Under the pieces are notes generated by a model that was not told where the DNA came from, ran no database searches, and was given only the letters and a program-made list of their open reading frames with translations. A stretch of DNA of 43,032 nt, from contig JAURQT010000123.1 of the NCBI GenBank assembly GCA_030835985.1, forward strand, positions 1 to 43,032, in the 5' to 3' direction. Source of the DNA: Alphaproteobacteria bacterium (lineage in GTDB: Bacteria > Pseudomonadota > Alphaproteobacteria > Puniceispirillales > Puniceispirillaceae). A program made the translations under genes and the position numbers. Positions 27,126 through 38,246 of this stretch are shown here, piece after piece. Position 1 is the stretch's first letter. Every line of letters starts with the position of its first letter.

Positions 27126-27587
27126 ATGAAAAAACAGTTCAAATCCATATTGCTGCTTTTAGGCGTGTTATTCAGTGCCACCGGATGCCAGTATTTTTAC
27201 GATGGGCGCAATGAGTCTCTGATGGTTGTCCCGGCCGCAGAATGGGCAGAGCTGCATCAGTTTAAAAAAGAACAGCGCGCCCGACAAATCGCGGCTGCCC
27301 GCCCAACGCCGGTTGAAGGGGCAGAAGCCATCAGCTTTACCAATATGTCCGATGCCTATCTGGCCGGATGCCGCTCGCTGGGCGTGGTAGAGGTACACCA
27401 TAACGGGTCGTATGATGATGCGATGGTTCTGATGCGCAATCAGGCAGTAGAGCTGGAAGCCAGTGTCATTGTACCGCTGGATGTGTTTCAGAACACCACA
27501 GAAATTGGCCAGCCTGGCCCTGAAATGACCTATATCAAAGGCCGTATGTTGCGCTGCCCTGACAAAAAAACAGAAGAAGAGGCGTAA
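27126..27587 (+). CDS. Lipoprotein, DUF4156-like
   Basis: MKKQFKSILLLLGVLFSATGC lipoprotein signal; CRSLGVV..MRNQAVELEASVIV..C pattern. Confidence 0.7.
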   Translation: MKKQFKSILLLLGVLFSATGCQYFYDGRNESLMVVPAAEWAELHQFKKEQRARQIAAARPTPVEGAEAISFTNMSDAYLAGCRSLGVVEVHHNGSYDDAMVLMRNQAVELEASVIVPLDVFQNTTEIGQPGPEMTYIKGRMLRCPDKKTEEEA

Positions 27588-27592
27588 GGGTT

Positions 27593-27937
27593 ATGGCGGA
27601 GATTATTAATTTGCAAGCCTATCGCGCCGGCAAGGCCAGCATGACCCCTGCCAGCATTGCTCCGGAGTGCAGGATTTTATGTGCAAGCGATATCGCCGCC
27701 CCAAAAATCGGGGCTGATCATATCGATAGCCTGGCTGATAAAGTTGAAACCATGCTGGATAATGCCAGCCAGAATAACCGATTTGCCCATACAGTAGCGC
27801 TGACCGCTGGTCGTTATGCAGCGATGCAGCTTTTCCAGCTGCATGGCCGGGCACAAACCCTGTCCTTTTTTGAAGATTGCATTCAAACAGTCGAGCTATG
27901 CGATGATTTGCTGAAACAGATGGATGATGATTTCTAG
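27593..27937 (+). CDS. Hypothetical protein
   Basis: 114 aa, starts 5 nt after the lipoprotein stop with SD GAGG; N-terminal MAEIINLQAYR. Confidence 0.7.
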   Translation: MAEIINLQAYRAGKASMTPASIAPECRILCASDIAAPKIGADHIDSLADKVETMLDNASQNNRFAHTVALTAGRYAAMQLFQLHGRAQTLSFFEDCIQTVELCDDLLKQMDDDF

Positions 27938-28269
27938 GCTTTTTGCTTTTCCAGCGGCGCTTTACGCATAACTGTTCCGGATATATCCGCCCCTGAATCA
28001 ACCGCCAGCGCATCGGTAATAATCTCGCCAGCGACAATCGCTGCCTCGCCTACATTCAGGCTTTGTGTTTCCAGAATACCGGTAAATGTTCCGGCCACTG
28101 AAACCGTTTCGGCATGGACAAATCCCTGACACTGCCCGCCGGCCTCGATGATCAGGTCTCTGGCTTCCAATTCCCCTTCAAATGTGCCGGCTATCACCAC
28201 CAGCTGGCCCGGGGCTTTTAACAGGCCGCGCAGTTTAAGGCCGCTATCGATATAGGTGGAATCACTCAT
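27934..28269 (-). CDS. Bactofilin (polymer-forming cytoskeletal protein) 3
   Basis: Beta-helical repeats: IDSGLKLRGLL, VIAGTFEGEL, VAGTFTGIL, VAGEI..L.VDSGADISG. Confidence 0.88.
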   Translation of the reverse strand: MSDSTYIDSGLKLRGLLKAPGQLVVIAGTFEGELEARDLIIEAGGQCQGFVHAETVSVAGTFTGILETQSLNVGEAAIVAGEIITDALAVDSGADISGTVMRKAPLEKQKA

Positions 28270-28679
28270 ACGCCATCTCTATCCAAATCGGCTGTGCCGT
28301 CTTCGGTTCCGGTTCCGGTTCCGGTTCCGGTTCCGGTTTCGGTTCCGGTTTCGGTTCCGGTTTCATTTTCTGTCCAATTATGCAGAATATGACAATTAAG
28401 CGCTGCCCCTCTATCCATTTGCAGAGCCTGATATTCTATCTGGCCGAATAATTTTGCACTGGCCAGCAACCAGACGCTTTTGGCCTTCATGCGCCCGCGA
28501 TATTCGCCGGCAAACACCCCCAGCCCGATATCCAGATTGCCGGCACATTTTGCCCCTTTTTCCAGCTGAAATTTCCCGGCAATAATATCGGCCTGAACAT
28601 CGCCATATATTTCCAGCACTTCGGCCGGGCTGATATGGCCGGAAAAAGATGCCCCGCTACCAAAGACAGATTTCCTCAT
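28266..28679 (-). CDS. Bactofilin 2 with an E/G-T repeat tail
   Basis: FGSGASFSGHI, IYGDVQADI, AGEYRGRM, GQIEYQALQMDRGA. Confidence 0.85.
   Translation of the reverse strand: MRKSVFGSGASFSGHISPAEVLEIYGDVQADIIAGKFQLEKGAKCAGNLDIGLGVFAGEYRGRMKAKSVWLLASAKLFGQIEYQALQMDRGAALNCHILHNWTENETGTETGTETGTGTGTGTGTEDGTADLDRDGV
28302..28364 (-). repeat. In-frame hexamer VNTR (G[A/G]AACC) x10 encoding ETGTETGTETGTGTGTGTGTE
   Basis: Read directly in the 3' part of bactofilin 2. Confidence 0.95.
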
Positions 28680-29074
28680 TTGTCTGTTTCAGCCTCTATA
28701 GCGGCGGCGGCGGTCTTTGCCGGGCTGGCCGGTTTCTGCTGAACAAAGCTGCCTTCCAGCTGGGCACCCTCTTCTACCTCGATAATGTGATAGCGCATCT
28801 CGCCATTTACATAGGATGAGCTTGCCAGTTTCAACCGCATAGCATCTACATCGCCGGTCAGCCGCCCGCCAACAATTACCGTTTCAGCTTTGACATTGCC
28901 CTCTAATTTACCCTCTATGCCAATTTCCAGAACGGTACAGCTGACATCACCGGTAACCTGGCCGTTTAGAATCACCTTGTCAGGCGAATCAATCGAGCCG
29001 GTTAATTTGATATTTTTGCCAATAATCGCATCCTGGCTATCGGAAATGGCTGAGGGCGACGAAGACTTAAACAT
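28676..29074 (-). CDS. Bactofilin 1 (BacA/CcmA-like)
   Basis: MFK N-terminus; IIGKNIKLTGSI, ILNGQVTGDV, IGIEGKLEGNVKAETVIVGG, VEEGAQLEG. Confidence 0.93.
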   Translation of the reverse strand: MFKSSSPSAISDSQDAIIGKNIKLTGSIDSPDKVILNGQVTGDVSCTVLEIGIEGKLEGNVKAETVIVGGRLTGDVDAMRLKLASSSYVNGEMRYHIIEVEEGAQLEGSFVQQKPASPAKTAAAAIEAETDK

Positions 29075-29087
29075 TTAATTTCCCTAA

Positions 29088-29102
29088 TTTACAAAAGGTT
29101 AA
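29088..29102 (-). promoter_or_regulatory. Imperfect CtrA-like box TTAA-ccttttg-TAAA upstream of the bactofilin operon
   Basis: One mismatch to TTAA-N7-TTAA, 14 nt upstream of the start codon; the AT-rich context lowers significance. Confidence 0.25.
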
Positions 29103-29300
29103 TATAAAGATCAGCAAAGACCGATCATCCCTGACTCAACAGAACGTCTGAAAATAGGATAACATTACCATAAGACCGCGCAGAGTGGGTACACAAAGCG
29201 TTGTTACGGGCATTTCTTACGTCCTAAAATAGCTTTTTTAAATGTCGTTTATTTCACGGTGCGCGTTCATCGTTATCGGACCAGCTTTGATAACATAGAA

Positions 29301-29711
29301 ATGGAAAAACAAATGGTTGTTGACGTCATTGATATTCGCAAGCGTATTGAAAAAATTCGTAATGATGTATCCGAGGCGATTGTCTCGCAACATGAATTTG
29401 AAGCGCGCGAGGAAGCCTTGCGCGAGGATATCAGCCTTTCTGTTTCCCCTGCCGGAACGCCGCCGCAGAACGAAGATGCCCCGGAATTACCTTTAAGTGA
29501 TTTAGCCGAAAATCCAGCCCCGGCATCTTCAATGGCAAAACAGGGCAACCAGAATATCACAACCCACCGGGCGATGACGCAGATGATGTCTATGCCCTCT
29601 TTTACTCTGAATGTGAAAAATCGCCATTCAAATCGTTTGCTATTATCCTTAATTGCCGTCCAGCTGGTTACTAATCTGGTACTGATAGCGATTTTGCTGA
29701 ATAAGTTATGA
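29301..29711 (+). CDS. Hypothetical tail-anchored protein (N-terminal helix, disordered linker, C-terminal TM)
   Basis: Charged amphipathic N-terminal helix, Pro/acidic linker, hydrophobic C-terminus LLLSLIAVQLVTNLVLIAILL; stop overlaps the M23 start (ATGA). Confidence 0.75.
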   Translation: MEKQMVVDVIDIRKRIEKIRNDVSEAIVSQHEFEAREEALREDISLSVSPAGTPPQNEDAPELPLSDLAENPAPASSMAKQGNQNITTHRAMTQMMSMPSFTLNVKNRHSNRLLLSLIAVQLVTNLVLIAILLNKL

Positions 29712-31048
29712 TATTCGCATTTCGCGCATTTATCAGACGGTTTTTGCAAGAGCTTTTGCCGCCCTCGCTGGCACATAATGCGCCAAATATGCGGTTTGCC
29801 ACAACCGAAAAAACCTGGCTGGCCAGCGAGAGCCGTTATTTATTTTTTACCGAAAATGGCCCTGTTGAGGTTGGCTTCCGCCCCCATCATACGCTGAAAA
29901 TCGTCGGCGGGCTGACAGCAGGATTGCTTATCGCCATCTATACCGCCCCGTTTATTTATGGCCAGACCACACAGATTATCCCAACCGTCATTCAGGCACT
30001 TTCCAGCCCTGGCCCAAACCAGCGGCCAGAGACCGGCATAGAGCCTGTACCCGCCAGCAATAATTTACACACAGATAAATTGGCCGCCTTGCAGGAACTG
30101 ACCCTCCAGGCCATCACCGAAGAGCCTGTGCCAGCTATTTCGCGTGTTATGGCCCCGGAACCGCCAGCTGATGCAGCGGATATATCGGCTTCTGAACCAG
30201 CCTTTGTCCGCCCACAGATGATAGCAGGTGAAGCGGTAACCAGTCTGCCAGAAGAACAGCCTGAAAATTACGTCACGGTAATGGCCACACAAATTGGCCG
30301 TGCACCCGTCATCCCTGCGATAGACGAGCCTATCGCCCCCTTGCCGCGCCCGAAGCCGGAGCCGATGGATCCCGAATTTGTCGGGCTGGATAGCCTGGCC
30401 GAAGCCCCTTTTCTGGATGAGCGCACCAAACTTCACCGCCTGTTTGCCGATTATCTATCGCAAGCCCGGCAAATTGAAACCATCGCTGATCGCTTTGATA
30501 TCCGCCTGGATAGCCGGCCGAAAAGCTGGCCTGAAACAGCCGAGCCGAGACAAGGGCTGGTCGCAAACCTTTTCCTGCACCGGGATAGATGGGTGAAAAT
30601 CCTAAATCAAATTCCGCTCAGATCGCCATTGCGCTATTATTATATCACCAGCCCCTACGGGATGCGTACCAACAAAAAAACAGGGGTAACGCGCTTTCAT
30701 CACGGGGTAGATCTGGCCAGCACCTGGAACGCAGAATTGCGCCCTTCTGCCAGCGGTATTGTCAGCTTTGCCGGCCGCAATGGCTCGTTTGGCAATGTCG
30801 TGCGCGTGCGCCATGCCCATAATATTGAAACCGTCTATGCCCATCTTTCCTCTATTAATGTGGCGACAGGCGATTTTGTGACCGAGGATATTGTGCTGGG
30901 CAAAGTGGGCAATACCGGCCGTTCGGACGGTATGCATCTGCATTATGAAATCCTCATTAATGATAAATCCATCAATCCGGCTTTGTTCTTTAAAATCGGA
31001 CATCAGTTGAGCAATACAGGCGGTATTCCGCGCGAAATACGCTTCTGA
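29708..31048 (+). CDS. Membrane-anchored M23 metallopeptidase (LmdC-like)
   Basis: Cytoplasmic N-terminus (ESRYLFFTENGPVEVGFRP), TM helix, Pro-rich linker, helical region, M23 domain with ITSPYG, HHGVD (HxxxD), YAHL, HLH (HxH). Confidence 0.92.
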   Translation: MIFAFRAFIRRFLQELLPPSLAHNAPNMRFATTEKTWLASESRYLFFTENGPVEVGFRPHHTLKIVGGLTAGLLIAIYTAPFIYGQTTQIIPTVIQALSSPGPNQRPETGIEPVPASNNLHTDKLAALQELTLQAITEEPVPAISRVMAPEPPADAADISASEPAFVRPQMIAGEAVTSLPEEQPENYVTVMATQIGRAPVIPAIDEPIAPLPRPKPEPMDPEFVGLDSLAEAPFLDERTKLHRLFADYLSQARQIETIADRFDIRLDSRPKSWPETAEPRQGLVANLFLHRDRWVKILNQIPLRSPLRYYYITSPYGMRTNKKTGVTRFHHGVDLASTWNAELRPSASGIVSFAGRNGSFGNVVRVRHAHNIETVYAHLSSINVATGDFVTEDIVLGKVGNTGRSDGMHLHYEILINDKSINPALFFKIGHQLSNTGGIPREIRF

Positions 31049-31131
31049 TAGCTTCCTTTTGGCCTCGCCTTTGTTTTTTTTGCCGGGTTTACCCTTTTTT
31101 ATCGGGTGATATTCAGCCCTGACCGGCTGTC

Positions 31132-31147
31132 TGGCATAGCTGTTGCA
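31132..31147 (+). promoter_or_regulatory. Sigma-54 (-24/-12) promoter
   Basis: TGGCATAGCTGTTGCA = TGGCA-N6-TTGCA with exact GG-N10-GC spacing, 51 nt upstream of a small ORF with a strong SD. Confidence 0.75.
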
Positions 31148-31197
31148 AGCAATAGGCGATGACAAATTGCTGACAGCAGGATAACAGGAGTGGTCAG

Positions 31198-31377
31198 ATG
31201 AAAAAGCCGTTTGATGAGTTACATAATCTGGCAATTGAATTTGTGGAATTTGATGACAAGGATCAGCCAAAATCTGCCAGCTATATACCGCTTGGGCATT
31301 ATTTGCATGAAACCGGCCATAGCGCAGAAGAACAGGAAATGACCGCCCAACTGGTCGCCCTTGCAGCAGAACGTTAA
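31198..31377 (+). CDS. Unannotated 59-aa acidic small protein
   Basis: MKKPFDELHNLAIEFVEFDDKDQPKSASYIPLGHYLHETGHSAEEQEMTAQLVALAAER*; SD CAGGAG 7 nt before the ATG; sigma-54 promoter upstream; shorter than any ORF in the track. Confidence 0.7.
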   Translation: MKKPFDELHNLAIEFVEFDDKDQPKSASYIPLGHYLHETGHSAEEQEMTAQLVALAAER

Positions 31378-31574: not shown

Positions 31575-33119
31575 TTAGCGCATACTGGTCAGGCGTGCCT
31601 GCATCCGTCTTTGGGAAGAAGAGGGGATATTCAGCATCTCGCGATATTTGGCAACGGTGCGCCGCGCCAGGTCAATCCCCTGCTTGGAAATCATTTTGGA
31701 AATAGCCTCATCACTCAGCGGCTTGCCAGGCATTTCCTGAGAGATAATTTTTTTCACCATATTGCGAACCGAGGCAGCAGAGGCATTCATATCCGAGCCC
31801 TTTGTCGCAATATTCACACTAAAGAAAGATTTCAACGGCATCCCGCCACGCGGCGTGGAAATCAGCAAGCCTGTGGTGACGCGGCTGACAGTGCTTTCAT
31901 GCATCCCCACGGCCTTGGCCACATCCCGCAGCGATAGGGGCTTTAGATAATCCAGCCCTTTTTCCAGAAAATCTGTCTGATGGCGGATAATTTCGGCACT
32001 GATTTTCAGCGTGGTCTGATTGCGCTGTTCAACCGCCCGTTTTAGCCAGCGCGCATTGGCCAGCGTATCAGAGGCATAATCGGCTGCAGCTTTATCTTTG
32101 CGCTGCTGTTCTGCCATTTTTTCTGCATATTCTTCATTGACCAGAACCGACGGCAGGGTAGAGCGGTTTAGCTCGACAGACCAGCCCTTTGCTGTTCGGC
32201 TGACAATCACATCCGGGCTGGGCATATCTCGATATTCAATACCCAAATGCTCGCCCGGCTTGGGGTTGAGCGTGCGAATAATCGCCAGCATATCCATAAT
32301 ATCGCTTTGTTCGCATTTCAGCTTGCGGGCAAGCTGTTTTACCTCGCCGCGCCCCAACTGTTCCAGATTATCCAGTAACAGGCCAAATTCAGGGGTAAAC
32401 AGCTCTTGATCCATCAGCTGAATACGCAAGCAATCTGCCAGATCGCGGGCAAAAATGCCGGCGGGCTCAAACCCTTGCAATACTTCCAGAACCGCTTCAG
32501 CACGGGCGATAGAACTGCCGGCCTGTGCCGCAATTTCCTCGACCCTGGCACCAATCCAGCCAGTTGGCTCGAGTGCCGCTACAAAATGACCCGCGATTAG
32601 CCGGTCAGCCGGATGGGCAAAGGCCAGATTAAGCTGGCGGAAAAGCTGGGGATAAAATCCTTCCTCAACCGAAACATTTTCAATCAGATTGAAATCCCCG
32701 TCGCCGCTGGCATTGCTGCGCTTGCCCGTGGTGCTATCTGCATGGGCGGTATCGAAACGGTTTTCATATTCCGAGCTATGTGTGGGATCATCCTTTAGCG
32801 CGGCACTTTCTTTTAGCGCAGATAAATCATTTTGCGGCTCGGATGCCTGCAAATCCTGTCCGGCTTCAGACGGGCTACTTGCGCCCTTCTCAGAAGGGGC
32901 AGCCGGATTATCTGACGGGGCATCATTGTGTGCCGCTTTTTCAGATTCCCGGTCATCAATCGTCTTTACTTCCAAAAACGGGTTTTCATACATCTGTTCT
33001 TGCAAGTGCTGGGATAATTCAATATTGGACATTTGCAACAGCTTAATCGCTTGCTGCAATTGCGGTGTCATAACCAGTGATTGCTTCTGGCGAAGTTTGA
33101 TAGACTGTGATAACTGCAT
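31575..33119 (-). CDS. rpoN: RNA polymerase sigma-54 factor
   Basis: Region I MTPQLQQAIKLLQMS, MHESTVSRVT HTH, RpoN box ARRTVAKYRE; ATG 33119 after AAGGAG. Confidence 0.98.
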   Translation of the reverse strand: MQLSQSIKLRQKQSLVMTPQLQQAIKLLQMSNIELSQHLQEQMYENPFLEVKTIDDRESEKAAHNDAPSDNPAAPSEKGASSPSEAGQDLQASEPQNDLSALKESAALKDDPTHSSEYENRFDTAHADSTTGKRSNASGDGDFNLIENVSVEEGFYPQLFRQLNLAFAHPADRLIAGHFVAALEPTGWIGARVEEIAAQAGSSIARAEAVLEVLQGFEPAGIFARDLADCLRIQLMDQELFTPEFGLLLDNLEQLGRGEVKQLARKLKCEQSDIMDMLAIIRTLNPKPGEHLGIEYRDMPSPDVIVSRTAKGWSVELNRSTLPSVLVNEEYAEKMAEQQRKDKAAADYASDTLANARWLKRAVEQRNQTTLKISAEIIRHQTDFLEKGLDYLKPLSLRDVAKAVGMHESTVSRVTTGLLISTPRGGMPLKSFFSVNIATKGSDMNASAASVRNMVKKIISQEMPGKPLSDEAISKMISKQGIDLARRTVAKYREMLNIPSSSQRRMQARLTSMR

Positions 33120-33393: not shown

Positions 33394-33657
33394 ATGCTGA
33401 TCATGCGCACCCATGTTAAAAGAGAGCCTTGCCGGCGCTGTCATATCTTGCGCCTGTTTTTAGGGATGGTTCTTGGGATTGCGATAATCGGCCTGATGAT
33501 GGGCGATGTATTTCATCAGATAGGCGGGATACAGCCGATATATTTTGGCTATGTCTTTGCCGGGCTGGCTATCCTCACCTTTGCGGTAAAATTTATCGCC
33601 TATCAACGCAGCAGAGCAAAACAGGCCATCTCTGATAAATCAGACAGCCAGCGATAA
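33394..33657 (+). CDS. Small two-TM membrane protein with N-terminal CRRC
   Basis: 87 aa; PCRRCH followed by two hydrophobic helices and a basic tail. Confidence 0.7.
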   Translation: MLIMRTHVKREPCRRCHILRLFLGMVLGIAIIGLMMGDVFHQIGGIQPIYFGYVFAGLAILTFAVKFIAYQRSRAKQAISDKSDSQR

Positions 33658-33659
33658 GG

Positions 33660-34214
33660 CTATGGCGAAACTCTGTCTCTTACCAGGCGAACCGCCAGCG
33701 GTTTTTCGGGAAATGAACGGGCATAGCTGTGGCCTGTCATAAAATTTACTGACCAGTAATTATTTGCGACCAGCCAGTTGCGCTGTCCTGTCCAATAGGG
33801 TTCTGCCCCTGTTTGCGGAAAAATTGTCTTTTCAATACGCGGCGGCGGACAATCTGCGCAAATCAGTAAAGCCAGCTCATCCTTGCTAGGCAGACGCCAG
33901 CGCCCCCCTAATTCTTTATTGGCCTGTTTGATGATTTCCGGAATTTCCTCATAGGTGAATTGCAGGATGTCACCCTCGCAACTACCCTGATTATATGTTT
34001 GTCCCACCGAACAGCGCAGCCATTCAACCCCGCTTCGCAAATCCAGAACAATATGTTCGCGCACCAGATAGTGACTGGTAGATGCCTGGCCAGACAAAGC
34101 TATTCCGGCAAGGCCAAAAAGACTGGCTGCCAGGCATAAAACCCGCATCATTACTTGCATCATTACTTGCATCTGGCGTCTTAAAAAACGGTTTAACCTT
34201 GTCAGATGAGACAT
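33660..34214 (-). CDS. DUF1566 (Lcl C-terminal-like) exported protein
   Basis: VLDLRSGVEWLRCSVGQ, WRLPSKDEL, FP..YWT, WSVNF..G, VRLVR. True start probably 34172 or 34148 (signal peptide). Confidence 0.88.
   Translation of the reverse strand: MSHLTRLNRFLRRQMQVMMQVMMRVLCLAASLFGLAGIALSGQASTSHYLVREHIVLDLRSGVEWLRCSVGQTYNQGSCEGDILQFTYEEIPEIIKQANKELGGRWRLPSKDELALLICADCPPPRIEKTIFPQTGAEPYWTGQRNWLVANNYWSVNFMTGHSYARSFPEKPLAVRLVRDRVSP
34145..34173. repeat. 12-bp tandem repeat GCATCATTACTT x2.4
   Basis: Read directly; encodes MQVMMQVMM at the DUF1566 N-terminus. Confidence 0.85.
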
Positions 34215-34386: not shown

Positions 34387-35148
34387 ATGGATATCGCATC
34401 GCTTCTTGGCCTTATTGGCGGAATTGGCATGATCATTGGCGCTATGATTTCGGGCGGTGGACTGGGTCCATTTATTGATGTGCCGTCCATTTTGATCGTT
34501 TTTGGCGGCACGGCCTTTCTGGTGCTTTATTCTGTACCGATGGGCGTTTTCATTGGCCATTTTGGCGTGATGGCCAAGGCTTTCCTGCCGCCCATTAAAA
34601 AAATGGACGAGATGGTAGAGCGCATGGTGGAGCTGTCCGGTATTGCCCGTAAAGACGGGATGATGGCACTGGAAGGCCAGGAAGTCCCCGATAAATTCTT
34701 TCAAAAAGGTTTGCAAATGCTGGTAGATGGCGCCGATGAAGCCAAGCTTGTTGCCCAGCTAAACAAGGAAATCGCCTCTATGAAAAAGCGCCATGAAGCC
34801 AATCAGGGGGCGGTAAAAGCCTGGATTGACCTGGCCCCGGCAATGGGCATGATCGGCACGCTTATTGGCCTGGTGCTGATGCTTGGTAATATGGCTGACC
34901 CAAAGGCGATTGGCCCGGCGATGGCGGTGGCCTTGTTGACCACCCTTTATGGGGCGTTTATCGCCAATGTGCTATTTATGCCAATGCTGACCAAGCTGGA
35001 AGGCTATACAGAATATGAAGTCGTCTATCGCGAAATGGTGGTAACAGGCTTGCGCAATATCGCCAGAGGGGAGTCTCCGCGCAATATTCAGGATCAACTC
35101 GTCTCGAACCTGCCGCCTAAAATGCAGGAAAAGATGGAGCTGGCATAA
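34387..35148 (+). CDS. motA: Flagellar stator A subunit, PomA-type
   Basis: MDIASLLGLIGG, ARKDGMMALE, APAMGMIGTLIGLV, IGPAMAVALLTTLYGA. Confidence 0.95.
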   Translation: MDIASLLGLIGGIGMIIGAMISGGGLGPFIDVPSILIVFGGTAFLVLYSVPMGVFIGHFGVMAKAFLPPIKKMDEMVERMVELSGIARKDGMMALEGQEVPDKFFQKGLQMLVDGADEAKLVAQLNKEIASMKKRHEANQGAVKAWIDLAPAMGMIGTLIGLVLMLGNMADPKAIGPAMAVALLTTLYGAFIANVLFMPMLTKLEGYTEYEVVYREMVVTGLRNIARGESPRNIQDQLVSNLPPKMQEKMELA

Positions 35149-35190
35149 AGTTTTTAGCCGCGATAATCCGTGCTGGCAAAGGAATAGAAG

Positions 35191-36324
35191 ATGGCAGAAG
35201 CAGAAGCCCCAGAGATCGAAGAAGAAGAAGAGGAATGTCCCAAATGCCCGCCTGTTGGTGCGCCGGCATGGATGGCAACCTTTGCCGATATGGCTACTTT
35301 GCTGATGGCCTTCTTTGTTCTTATTCTTTCTTTTGCCGAGTTTAATGTACCGAAATTTAAACAGATTTCCGGCTCGCTGCGAAATGCTTTCGGGGTGCAA
35401 AAAATTGTACCGATTGTTGAACAGCCAAAGGGCACAACCGTCCTGTCATTGAATTTCAGCCCGTCTCCGGCAAAATCCGTGACAGACGAGATGACCCAGC
35501 AAACCACCAATGTCAATCAGCCGGATCTGGAACAGCAAAATAAAAATAAAGATGGCGATGGCGATGCCCAAAATGATGCCGAAGATGTGGTCAAGGCACT
35601 GGAAGACGCCATTGCCAGAGGCGATATTGAGGTACAAACGCTGGGCGAGAATGTCGTGGTAAACTTCACCCCGACAGAAGCCGAGGAAAAAGACCTGCCA
35701 CAATTATTGCAAAAAACCCTCAATGCCATTGAAAAGGCCAAAAAGGCTGCCGGTGCATCTGATCAGGAAGTGTTGTTTGGCGGGCTGGAAGGCACGTTGC
35801 AGCAATTGGCAAAAGCGGCCAGTGATGCGGCCGAGCAATCGGCCAAAGATGCCCAAAGCCAGGCTGAGTCCGAGGCCCAGGCTGAACTGGCAGAAGATGA
35901 GCTGAAAGTTGCCTTGCGCCAGGAAATCGATAAAGGTCTGGTGGCCGTAGAGCGCGATGAAGACAAGGTTATCATCACCGTGGGCGCAGGCGGGGCATTT
36001 GCCTCTGGTTCAGCCAATCTGACCACCGAGGCACTGGAAATTATGGACAGAATTGCCAGCGTCAATGCAAATGGCAAGAGCGAGATTACCGTATCTGGTC
36101 ACACAGATGATGTGCCATTGATATTCGGCTCGCGCTATCGCGATAACTGGGATTTGGCCGCCGCACGTTCTGCAAGTGTTGTACAGGCATTATCGGCAGA
36201 CGGGCTTATTTCCAATAACCGGCTGGAAGCGATCAGCTATGGCGAGAGCCGCCCGGTTGAAACCAATGATACCGCTGCCGGCAGAGCCAAAAACCGCCGC
36301 ATCGAAATCGAGATTAACTATTAA
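35191..36324 (+). CDS. motB: Flagellar stator B subunit, PomB-type, with an extended periplasmic region
   Basis: ECPKCPP..WMATFAD (ion-binding Asp), plug KFKQISGSLRNAFGVQ, OmpA-like domain GHTDDVP..NWDL..NRRIEI. Confidence 0.95.
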   Translation: MAEAEAPEIEEEEEECPKCPPVGAPAWMATFADMATLLMAFFVLILSFAEFNVPKFKQISGSLRNAFGVQKIVPIVEQPKGTTVLSLNFSPSPAKSVTDEMTQQTTNVNQPDLEQQNKNKDGDGDAQNDAEDVVKALEDAIARGDIEVQTLGENVVVNFTPTEAEEKDLPQLLQKTLNAIEKAKKAAGASDQEVLFGGLEGTLQQLAKAASDAAEQSAKDAQSQAESEAQAELAEDELKVALRQEIDKGLVAVERDEDKVIITVGAGGAFASGSANLTTEALEIMDRIASVNANGKSEITVSGHTDDVPLIFGSRYRDNWDLAAARSASVVQALSADGLISNNRLEAISYGESRPVETNDTAAGRAKNRRIEIEINY

Positions 36325-37508: not shown

Positions 37509-38246
37509 TTACGGGAAAGAAATGCGATCCTGTTGCACTTGCAAGAGCTGGAGGATTTTTACATTCTGTCCAGCCAGCATATCTACCTGGGCAGCGGTTT
37601 TTTTCTGCTGGGCAGATAATGCGCCTATCTCGGCATTATTGATCAGTTTTGATTCCACATCAGCGATAGACCCGCTAATAGAGGCTTCCAGGCTGGCCAG
37701 ATTTACCGCCAATTGATTGGTTTGCCCCAGGGCTTCGCTAACCACTTCCTCGCTGATAGATTTTGCCAGCTTTTCATTGGCAGTGACCATCGCACCGGTT
37801 GAGGCTTTCATCTCATCCATCATCGCAGAAGAAGAAGAGGAGATTAACGCCATCATTTCTGTCATTTTTTCAGAAGATTCCCGGTTTAACGCCACTAATT
37901 CTGCTTGCTGGGAAAGCGCGCTGTTCAATTCTTCGAGAACCCCGTTCAATTCCTGAATATTTTCCGAGAACACGACCACCCCTTCCAGGTTGGTATCGCT
38001 CATTGCCTTTAGCTGGCTGATGGTCTGAAAATACAGCGTTGCGGAAAAAACCAGACATACCACAGCTGTTACCATAGCCGTTACAAAAGTCATCGTTGTA
38101 TAGCGGTGAATCTGTGACACTTTTTGCTCCAGCTTTTTATGTTCGCGTTTTACCTGACTATATTCGGAAGTGACATCTGTCGCGGCATCAGCAGCATCCA
38201 GCGCCAACTTGATACTTTCCTGAACTGAATTCAATTCACTAGACAT
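37509..38246 (-). CDS. Single-TM periplasmic coiled-coil protein, MotF-like
   Basis: 245 aa with a TM at about residues 52-73 followed by a long helical region; position downstream of fliOPQR-flhB resembles R. sphaeroides Fla1 motF (recalled architecture and synteny, not an alignment). Confidence 0.6.
   Translation of the reverse strand: MSSELNSVQESIKLALDAADAATDVTSEYSQVKREHKKLEQKVSQIHRYTTMTFVTAMVTAVVCLVFSATLYFQTISQLKAMSDTNLEGVVVFSENIQELNGVLEELNSALSQQAELVALNRESSEKMTEMMALISSSSSAMMDEMKASTGAMVTANEKLAKSISEEVVSEALGQTNQLAVNLASLEASISGSIADVESKLINNAEIGALSAQQKKTAAQVDMLAGQNVKILQLLQVQQDRISFP

What the first reader, a model, noticed from the sequence alone, without database searches (positions are those of the whole stretch)
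27934..31377. Triple-bactofilin / tail-anchored protein / LmdC-like M23 peptidase locus at the edge of a sigma-54 flagellar cluster: candidate flagellum-associated cytoskeleton and wall-remodelling system
Seen: three translationally coupled, mutually divergent bactofilins sit head-to-head with an operon of a tail-anchored unknown and an intact membrane M23 peptidase. A sigma-54 small gene, rpoN and the stator genes follow directly. Known: a bactofilin with an M23/LmdC partner is a cell-shape module in Hyphomonas, Rhodospirillum and Helicobacter, and B. subtilis BacE/BacF are needed for flagellar assembly. Inference: three paralogues, the divergent layout, the extra anchor gene and the flagellar context suggest a heteropolymeric scaffold that positions a peptidoglycan endopeptidase at the flagellar or polar site. 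I do not know this configuration to be described.
Basis: partly seen in the sequence, partly recalled or inferred. Interest (0 to 1): 0.75.

Follow-up and report, generated by a model that had tools for sequence, protein, structure and literature searches.

The report
Wall-shaping cassette inside marine flagellar island
Three cytoskeleton genes, a new small membrane protein and a cell-wall-cutting enzyme sit as one unit among the flagellar genes of abundant SAR116 ocean bacteria and of a second marine group; they likely bend the cell body of swimming cells rather than build the flagellum, since relatives with the same flagellar genes lack them.

Summary
Observation confirmed: three divergent bactofilins face an operon of a tail-anchored protein (TA) and an intact membrane M23 peptidase, in a SAR116 genome. 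The five genes form a conserved cassette inside, not at the edge of, a Fla1-like sigma-54 flagellar island, in three of four families of the order and in one family of another order. It tracks the flagellum: 62 of 62 bactofilin-positive genomes of the family have flagellar genes; 0 of 18 without flagellar markers have bactofilins; it stays 6-10 kb from motB. Some lineages carry sigma-54 boxes on it; the window does not. But it is dispensable: a flagellated sister family (0 of 22, one complete genome) and another order keep the same island without it. The peptidase is LmdC-like, not a canonical LmdC. New variant of the known bactofilin-M23 module; not found in the paper searches. The scan noted the same module earlier on another genome (e1-9745179).

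The parts
28676..29074 (-). bac1: bactofilin with an N-terminal M-F/L tail like the known membrane-targeting sequence; missing in G033 (complete genome) and G035
   Evidence: Pfam 77 bits; M[FL] start motif in 25 of 31 Bac1 against 0 of 31 Bac2 and 3 of 31 Bac3; alignment; motif described in PMC12448750; loss
28266..28679 (-). bac2: most conserved paralogue, with an invariant C-terminal edge (QxDRGAALNC...NW) and a variable acidic tail, here with a 6-base repeat
   Evidence: Pfam 54 bits; alignment of 21, 53% column identity; own side of the tree, support 99
27934..28269 (-). bac3: minimal bactofilin core without tails
   Evidence: Pfam 63 bits; own side of the tree, support 89
29075..29312 (.). 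divergent intergenic region; no sigma-54 box here; a conserved TGACTCAACA block shared by the window's genus and two neighbouring genera
29313..29711 (+). TA: tail-anchored protein of no known family; conserved N-terminal helix, variable disordered linker, short conserved segment, C-terminal membrane helix (alternative start 29301)
   Evidence: no Pfam or NCBIfam family; alignments; model with helices 2-24, 79-92, 103-130; 197 representatives at E<=0.001, none named
29708..31048 (+). membrane M23 endopeptidase, LmdC-like: predicted cytoplasmic beta-hairpin (42-57), membrane helix, disordered linker (99-206), two helices, intact catalytic domain
31132..31377 (+). sigma-54 box (31132-31146) and 59-aa gene (31198-31377); part of the flagellar island, not of the cassette
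   Evidence: kept in cassette-less f4
27593..27937 (+). 114-aa conserved gene, stop overlapping that of bac3; island gene, kept in cassette-less f4 and f125
27126..27587 (+). lipoprotein with four conserved cysteines; island gene that sits either after bac3 or after M23
   Evidence: weak YbjQ/RcsF-like lead for a homologue
31575..33116 (-). rpoN of the flagellar island
33394..34214 (.). 87-aa membrane gene (+) and Lcl_C gene (-), conserved between rpoN and motA
34387..36324 (+). motA and motB; best NCBIfam matches PomA (below cut-off) and MotB family
   Evidence: sigma-54-type site 57-82 bases upstream in 31 of 31 loci

Best explanation
The five genes are a cassette carried inside the flagellar island that likely bends or twists the cell body of swimming cells: the three bactofilins likely form a mixed filament under the inner membrane, predicted to be held there by the Bac1 tail and the tail-anchored protein, and would gather the membrane M23 peptidase through its predicted cytoplasmic hairpin so that cross-links are cut locally. 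Shown: the genes, their order, their joint presence and absence, the intact catalytic motifs, the tie to the rpoN-motAB block, sigma-54 boxes in some lineages, and flagellar islands without the cassette. Inferred: co-polymerisation, the role of TA, hairpin binding, enzyme activity, and the effect on shape. It stays with the flagellar genes because a curved body likely pays mainly when the cell swims.
For: Unit: bac3-bac2-bac1 facing TA-M23 in 19 of 20 loci of family f1 (the twentieth lacks bac1), 7 of 7 loci of f3 and 3 of 3 of f2 and 2 of 2 of f12, another order. Tie to motility: 62 of 62 bactofilin-positive f1 genomes have a flagellar marker; 0 of 18 without any of four markers have bactofilins, 11 of them at least 90% complete. 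Dispensable for the flagellum: f4 has 0 of 22 with bactofilins and 15 of 22 with FliG; complete genome G170 and G181 keep fliG to motAB, rpoN, the small gene and the 114-aa gene without the five genes; f125 genomes G312 and G581 likewise. An rpoN tree puts the cassette-less lineages among cassette-bearing ones (at least 2 changes forced). The island has a rod-binding-only FlgJ and, in g9, f4 and f12, a lytic transglycosylase, the type that opens the wall for Fla1 (PMC7277832). Bactofilin-LmdC pairs set curvature and stalk shape and bind through the hairpin (PMC10945521). SAR116 isolates are rods, vibrios or spirilla (PMC12262181); the spiral strain HIMB100 has a named TA homologue (P0187).
Against: No shape data could be tied to cassette-less lineages. 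The tie is specifically to rpoN-motAB even where that block is detached from the fli genes, and sigma-54 boxes lie on the cassette in g7, g9, f3 and f12, which fits a motor-site role at least as well. The hairpin is not significantly similar to that of LmdC (probability 1.5%, E 0.033). No transglycosylase was seen beside the cassette in the window's own genus. B. subtilis bactofilins affect flagella, strain-dependently. Kin are not independent, and one island deletion would remove flagellum and cassette together.
Confidence: 0.5

Rival explanations
1. The cassette is an accessory of the flagellar motor site: a bactofilin patch at the pole or basal body positions the peptidase to remodel wall where stators dock or to fix flagellar position.
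For: Always beside rpoN-motAB, also where the fli genes are elsewhere; sigma-54 boxes of the motA type upstream of TA (7 of 37) and of the first bactofilin (11 of 36) against shuffle means of 0.2; absent from non-flagellated kin; BacE/BacF precedent (listing, abstract).
Against: Same island without the cassette in f4 and f125; no sigma-54 box in the window or in g1, g2, g5, g6, g11, g13, f2; no characterised bactofilin-M23 pair with this role in the papers read.
Confidence: 0.3
2. The cassette is an ordinary shape module that landed in the island once and is inherited and deleted with it; the link has no functional meaning.
For: Island-wide deletion explains joint absence; most lineages lack a sigma-54 box; G150 (90% complete) and G108 have cassette and motB but neither FliG nor FlgI; G081 has an M23 fragment and no flagellar marker.
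Against: The link survives rearrangement of all outer flanks and transfer or descent across two orders; no cassette was found away from rpoN-motAB in any locus fetched; sigma-54 boxes in four lineages.
Confidence: 0.12
3. The cassette builds another envelope structure of the motile state, such as a polar extension, filamentous growth form or sheath base.
For: Bactofilin-LmdC builds stalk bases and bud necks in Hyphomonas; one SAR116 isolate is strongly pleomorphic; TA is a new component.
Against: No such structure is reported for the isolates in the passages read.
Confidence: 0.08

Closest known systems
BacA(/BacD)-LmdC module of Hyphomonas neptunium and Rhodospirillum rubrum (PMC10945521)
   Same: Bactofilin genes next to a single-pass M23 peptidase with a predicted cytoplasmic hairpin before the membrane helix and intact zinc ligands; the C-terminal region is closer to LmdC (142-180 bits) than to the genome's other M23 proteins (76-128 bits).
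   Different: Three ancient paralogues in a divergent operon, not lmdC-bacA in tandem; extra tail-anchored gene; no DUF5930 match; disordered linker in place of the long coiled coil; lies in the flagellar island and is lost with it.
CcmA with Csd1 in Helicobacter pylori (as described in the discussion of PMC10945521)
   Same: Bactofilin working with a membrane-spanning complex that includes an M23 peptidase; curved swimming cells.
   Different: No sequence test was run against the Csd proteins; TA matches no family; the flagellar gene link is not described there in the part read.
BacE/BacF of Bacillus subtilis (PMC4627819 listing, PMC9103452 abstract)
   Same: Paralogous bactofilins tied to flagellar motility; the need depends on background.
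   Different: No M23 partner or flagellar-cluster location in what was read; Gram-positive.
Fla1 flagellar system of Rhodobacter (Cereibacter) sphaeroides (PMC7277832)
   Same: Own rpoN, two sigma-54 activators with one heading fliEFGHIJ, FlgJ without muramidase domain, separate transglycosylase, a membrane protein after flhB with a helix near residues 47-73 like MotF.
   Different: The review has 0 occurrences of bactofilin; there motAB lies outside the cluster. Direct sequence comparison with Fla1 proteins was not run.

Membership tests
Bactofilin (PF04519) | Domain above the curated cut-off | tested here: met
   77, 54, 63 bits against 27.9; Bac2 profile matches solved bactofilins 2n3d and 6ria
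Bactofilin (PF04519) | N-terminal membrane-targeting tail | tested here: inconclusive
   M[FL] start in 25 of 31 Bac1 only; the basic residues of the known motif are variable; binding not testable
Bactofilin (PF04519) | Polymerisation, co-polymerisation of paralogues | not testable with these tools
   needs purified proteins
Active M23 endopeptidase | HxxxD, catalytic His and HxH motifs | tested here: met
   20 of 20 and 17 of 17 aligned members; frameshifted copies in G083, G111, G159 were left out of these alignments
LmdC | Single membrane helix near the N-terminus, C-terminal M23 domain | tested here: met
LmdC | Conserved cytoplasmic beta-hairpin homologous to that of LmdC | tested here: inconclusive
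   hairpin predicted at 42-57 with low confidence and conserved; aligns in register with 8 LmdC N-termini but probability 1.5%, E 0.033
LmdC | DUF5930 / long periplasmic coiled coil | tested here: not met
   0 of 17 members at E<=1; 0 of 5 genomes over cut-off; found in 8 of 10 other alphaproteobacteria; residues 99-206 disordered
LmdC | M23 domain groups with LmdC | tested here: inconclusive
   scores favour LmdC over other M23s; cassette enzymes form their own side (support 96); only 3 outgroup rows, all long branches
Bactofilin-M23 shape module | Adjacent bactofilin and M23 genes | tested here: inconclusive
   same locus, but divergent and separated by TA, so not immediately adjacent as in the published screen; no SAR116 term in its 12 supplementary files
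Bactofilin-M23 shape module | Shape defect on deletion; direct binding | not testable with these tools
   needs mutants and binding assays
Sigma-54 flagellar regulon | -24/-12 box upstream of the cassette arms | tested here: not met
   not met in the window; met in g7 (TA side), g9 (bac side), f3 and f12
Fla1-type flagellar system | Own rpoN, two sigma-54 activators, activator-fliEFGHIJ operon, FlgJ without muramidase | tested here: met
   in relative G026, against the review's description; no direct sequence comparison

The most novel reading that the evidence does not exclude
A bactofilin cytoskeleton with a new membrane anchor and its own wall peptidase has been wired into the flagellar regulon and travels between orders of streamlined marine bacteria as part of a motility island, so that building a flagellum and reshaping the cell (or the motor site) are one genetic programme.
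Probability: 0.35. Interest if true: 0.75.

Novelty: new variant of a known kind. Interest (0 to 1): 0.52.

Why it matters
Bactofilin-M23 pairs are known as shape modules, and a bactofilin link to flagella is known only from B. subtilis, without a mechanism. Here the two meet in one locus, in very abundant ocean bacteria, with natural experiments at hand: lineages with flagellum and cassette, with flagellum only, with neither, and with only two bactofilins. It names candidate genes for the rod, vibrio and spiral shapes reported among SAR116 isolates, adds an undescribed tail-anchored family, and makes it testable whether cell shape is selected and regulated together with swimming.

Tried and rejected
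Complex prediction of Bac2 with the M23 N-terminal 55 residues: no answer, score 0.00; not evidence either way. RNA libraries: contigs from 4 studies cover bactofilin and TA genes but also most of the stretch, and may contain DNA; not used. Atlas searches gave only hypothetical-protein clusters for a TA homologue and weak YbjQ/RcsF leads for a lipoprotein homologue. Pfam scan of TA members at E<=1: scattered, no family in more than 3 of 23. Sigma-70 and terminator scan: not above shuffles. Window-wide sigma-54 pattern count, 9 against 5.7 expected, is not enriched by itself. A weight-matrix search for weak sigma-54 sites was not completed, so degenerate boxes in the window are not excluded. 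MotB tree: unresolved. Bactofilin tree is the quick tree; the careful search did not finish. Searches had no positive control; one search supplied one for G170 and G069. Rejected: that three paralogues are obligatory (G033, G035 lack bac1); that the cassette is required for this flagellum; that the peptidase is a canonical LmdC; that the extra bactofilins of f3 belong to the cassette (in G124 they lie elsewhere, without M23 or flagellar neighbours). Supplements of PMC12262181 could not be read; they may hold gene tables that bear on which isolates carry the cassette.
Full report
Observation. The window holds three bactofilin genes on the minus strand (28676-29074, 28266-28679, 27934-28269) and, divergent from them, a small gene (TA, 29313-29711) and an M23 peptidase (29708-31048). 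The three are the genome's only bactofilins, are 17% and 28% identical to Bac1 and overlap by four bases, as do TA and M23. Then come a 59-aa gene with a sigma-54 box, rpoN (convergent), an 87-aa gene, an Lcl_C gene, motAB and the fli/flh genes. A genome-collection scan with the TA alignment returned 57 loci; many titles name SAR116 or Ca. Puniceispirillaceae, others only a class or other labels, so the organism is taken as SAR116.

The unit. I fetched 20 of the 61 other bactofilin-positive genomes of the family, chosen for long contigs and genus spread. Nineteen show bac3-bac2-bac1 facing TA-M23, followed towards rpoN, Lcl_C and motAB; G033 lacks bac1, as does G035. The M23 gene of G083 is frameshifted. 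Outer flanks differ by genus; a lipoprotein and a 114-aa gene move between the two sides of the cassette, and potassium-channel and cNMP-domain genes are inserted in some genera. The same order holds in 3 of 3 loci of family f2 and 7 of 7 of f3 (two of the f3 assemblies have many frameshifts, and one contig ends after rpoN). A quick tree of 97 bactofilins puts each position class on its own side of a branch (support 89, 99, 89), so the triplication is older than the split of these families. Bac1 alone mostly starts M-F/L (25 of 31), like the membrane-targeting tail in PMC12448750 (passages); Bac2 has an invariant C-terminal edge.

Link to the flagellum. Among 96 genomes of the family, 62 have bactofilins, nearly always three; 63 have FliP, 62 MotB, 62 a flagellin domain, 57 FliG. 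All 62 have at least one marker; 18 genomes have none of the four, and none of these has a bactofilin; 11 of the 18 are at least 90% complete, in four genera. Sixteen genomes have some flagellar marker and no bactofilin; I inspected 9, and in all 9 the contig ends at, inside or before the locus; 7 were not inspected. G081 has no marker but an M23 fragment on a 1.7-kb contig. In the 43 same-contig pairs I could read from the listed rows the distance to motB is 6.2-10.2 kb (pairs on different contigs left out). The tie is to rpoN-motAB: it holds in g9, f2 and part of f3, where that block is detached from the fli genes. In f3, G150 (90% complete) and G108 have cassette-type bactofilins and motB but no FliG or FlgI; gap or real loss is open. 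Non-flagellated G062 and G069 and cassette-less G170 and G181 have three M23 genes against four in G000.

Beyond the order. In a sample of 401 genomes of the class, the Bac2 profile scored below 1e-45 only in G000, G094 and two genomes of family f12 (next best 6e-20). In f12, 33 of 42 have Bac2 and 29 of 42 MotB, 28 both; two loci show the full cassette inside the same island, with a transglycosylase-like gene after M23. Source labels for close relatives of its TA read Rickettsiales or Alphaproteobacteria bacterium. An island marker (the 245-aa gene after flhB) was found in 10 of the 401.

Dispensability. Family f4 has 0 of 22 genomes with bactofilins and 15 of 22 with FliG. Complete genome G170, G181 and G179 keep the island's order but lack the five genes; G179 keeps the lipoprotein. 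G312 and G581 (f125, another order) also carry the island without the cassette; G312 has a canonical lmdC-bactofilin pair elsewhere. In an unrooted rpoN tree the cassette-less lineages lie among cassette-bearing ones, with at least two changes forced by well-supported branches, and f125 lies inside SAR116 sequences; AT-rich rows have atypical make-up and the MotB tree is unresolved. This fits an island that had the cassette, lost it more than once and moved between orders, but no donor or order of events is shown.

Regulation. A consensus scan (motif recalled) finds a sigma-54-type site 57-82 bases upstream of motA in 31 of 31 loci; at 9 of 11 positions or better, 7 of 37 TA regions (6 g7, 1 f3) and 11 of 36 first-bactofilin regions (g9, f3, f12), against shuffle means of 0.2; weaker sites lie on the TA side in the other f3 and f12 loci. 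None was found in the window or in g1, g2, g5, g6, g11, g13 or f2, whose intergenic regions share other conserved blocks.

The proteins. The peptidase keeps its zinc and catalytic motifs (20 of 20, 17 of 17). The model shows a hairpin at 42-57 (low confidence), a membrane helix, disorder at 99-206 and a confident C-terminal part. Its C-terminal region is nearer to eight LmdC proteins than to the genome's three other M23 proteins, but DUF5930 is not matched and the hairpin similarity is not significant. It works like LmdC on present evidence and should not be filed as one. TA has a conserved N-terminal helix, a variable linker and a C-terminal membrane helix, no family and 197 unnamed representatives. 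Its layout recalls helical hub adaptors such as PopZ (recalled; no test).

Mechanism. The characterised bactofilin-LmdC pairs localise wall cleavage and set curvature or stalk shape, binding through the hairpin (PMC10945521, sections 9, 10, 11, 13 and part 1 of the discussion). Wall opening for the rod is done in Fla1 by a transglycosylase (PMC7277832, passages), and such genes occur in the island in g9, f4 and f12. With the flagellar island intact in cassette-less lineages, I favour a curvature module coupled to motility (0.5) over a motor-site scaffold (0.3), hitch-hiking (0.12) or another envelope structure (0.08). SAR116 isolates range from rods to spirilla (PMC12262181, passages; PMC3368413, passages), and the spiral HIMB100 has a named TA homologue; shape could not be matched to cassette-less lineages.

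Novelty. Searches for bactofilin with SAR116 gave 0 papers; bactofilin, M23 peptidase and flagell gave 3 listed papers, none on this by title; bactofilin, flagellar, gene cluster and alphaproteobacteri gave 2 unrelated by title; the published bactofilin-M23 list has no SAR116 term in 12 supplementary files; two SAR116 genomics papers have 0 occurrences of bactofilin or flagell in the main text. PMC4627819 was seen as a listing only, PMC9103452 as abstract. The library lacks most subscription papers. Verdict: a new variant of a known module, interest 0.52.

Noticed in passing
window 28301-28350: 6-base repeat in the bac2 tail (E/G-T repeats); one RNA-library contig skips 48 bases there, so the tail length likely varies between strains.
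   Followed up: partly
L040:12690-13610, L038:11978-13687, L095:1486-2852, L173:12425-13375: An ion-channel gene with one or two stand-alone cNMP-binding genes recurs inside the flagellar island beside rpoN in several families and orders; a possible motility-linked channel.
   Followed up: partly
window 33660-34214: Lcl_C (DUF1566-type) gene divergent from motA in all islands inspected, with or without the cassette; role unknown.
   Followed up: no
window 37509-38246: 245-aa single-pass protein after flhB, highly conserved, MotF-like in helix position; found in only 10 of 401 class genomes, a good marker of this island.
   Followed up: partly
L089:7843-8364, L090, L091: A second FliL-like gene sits next to the lipoprotein beside the cassette in family f2.
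   Followed up: no
G033:C1:2230000-2286000; G005; G044: Up to 12 flagellin-domain genes per genome and very long flagellin, FlgK and hook open frames (800-2100 aa) in these small genomes.
   Followed up: no
L199:10297-10707, L200:10270-10629 (G124): Family f3 has two further, unlinked bactofilins per genome, without M23 or flagellar neighbours.
   Followed up: partly
L188, L190 (G312, G581): The island's rpoN in family f125 groups inside SAR116 sequences although the family is of another order; possible transfer of the flagellar island.
   Followed up: partly
L173:137-733, L173:10868-11353: In f12 a ribosome-recycling-factor-like gene lies after motB and a weak NHLP-leader match after the 114-aa gene (both below cut-off).
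   Followed up: no
L037, L038, L048, L049, L050 intergenic bac1-TA: A conserved inverted hexamer pair about 40 bases apart and a conserved TAACAA block in genera g2, g5, g6, g11; candidate regulator sites where no sigma-54 box exists.
   Followed up: no
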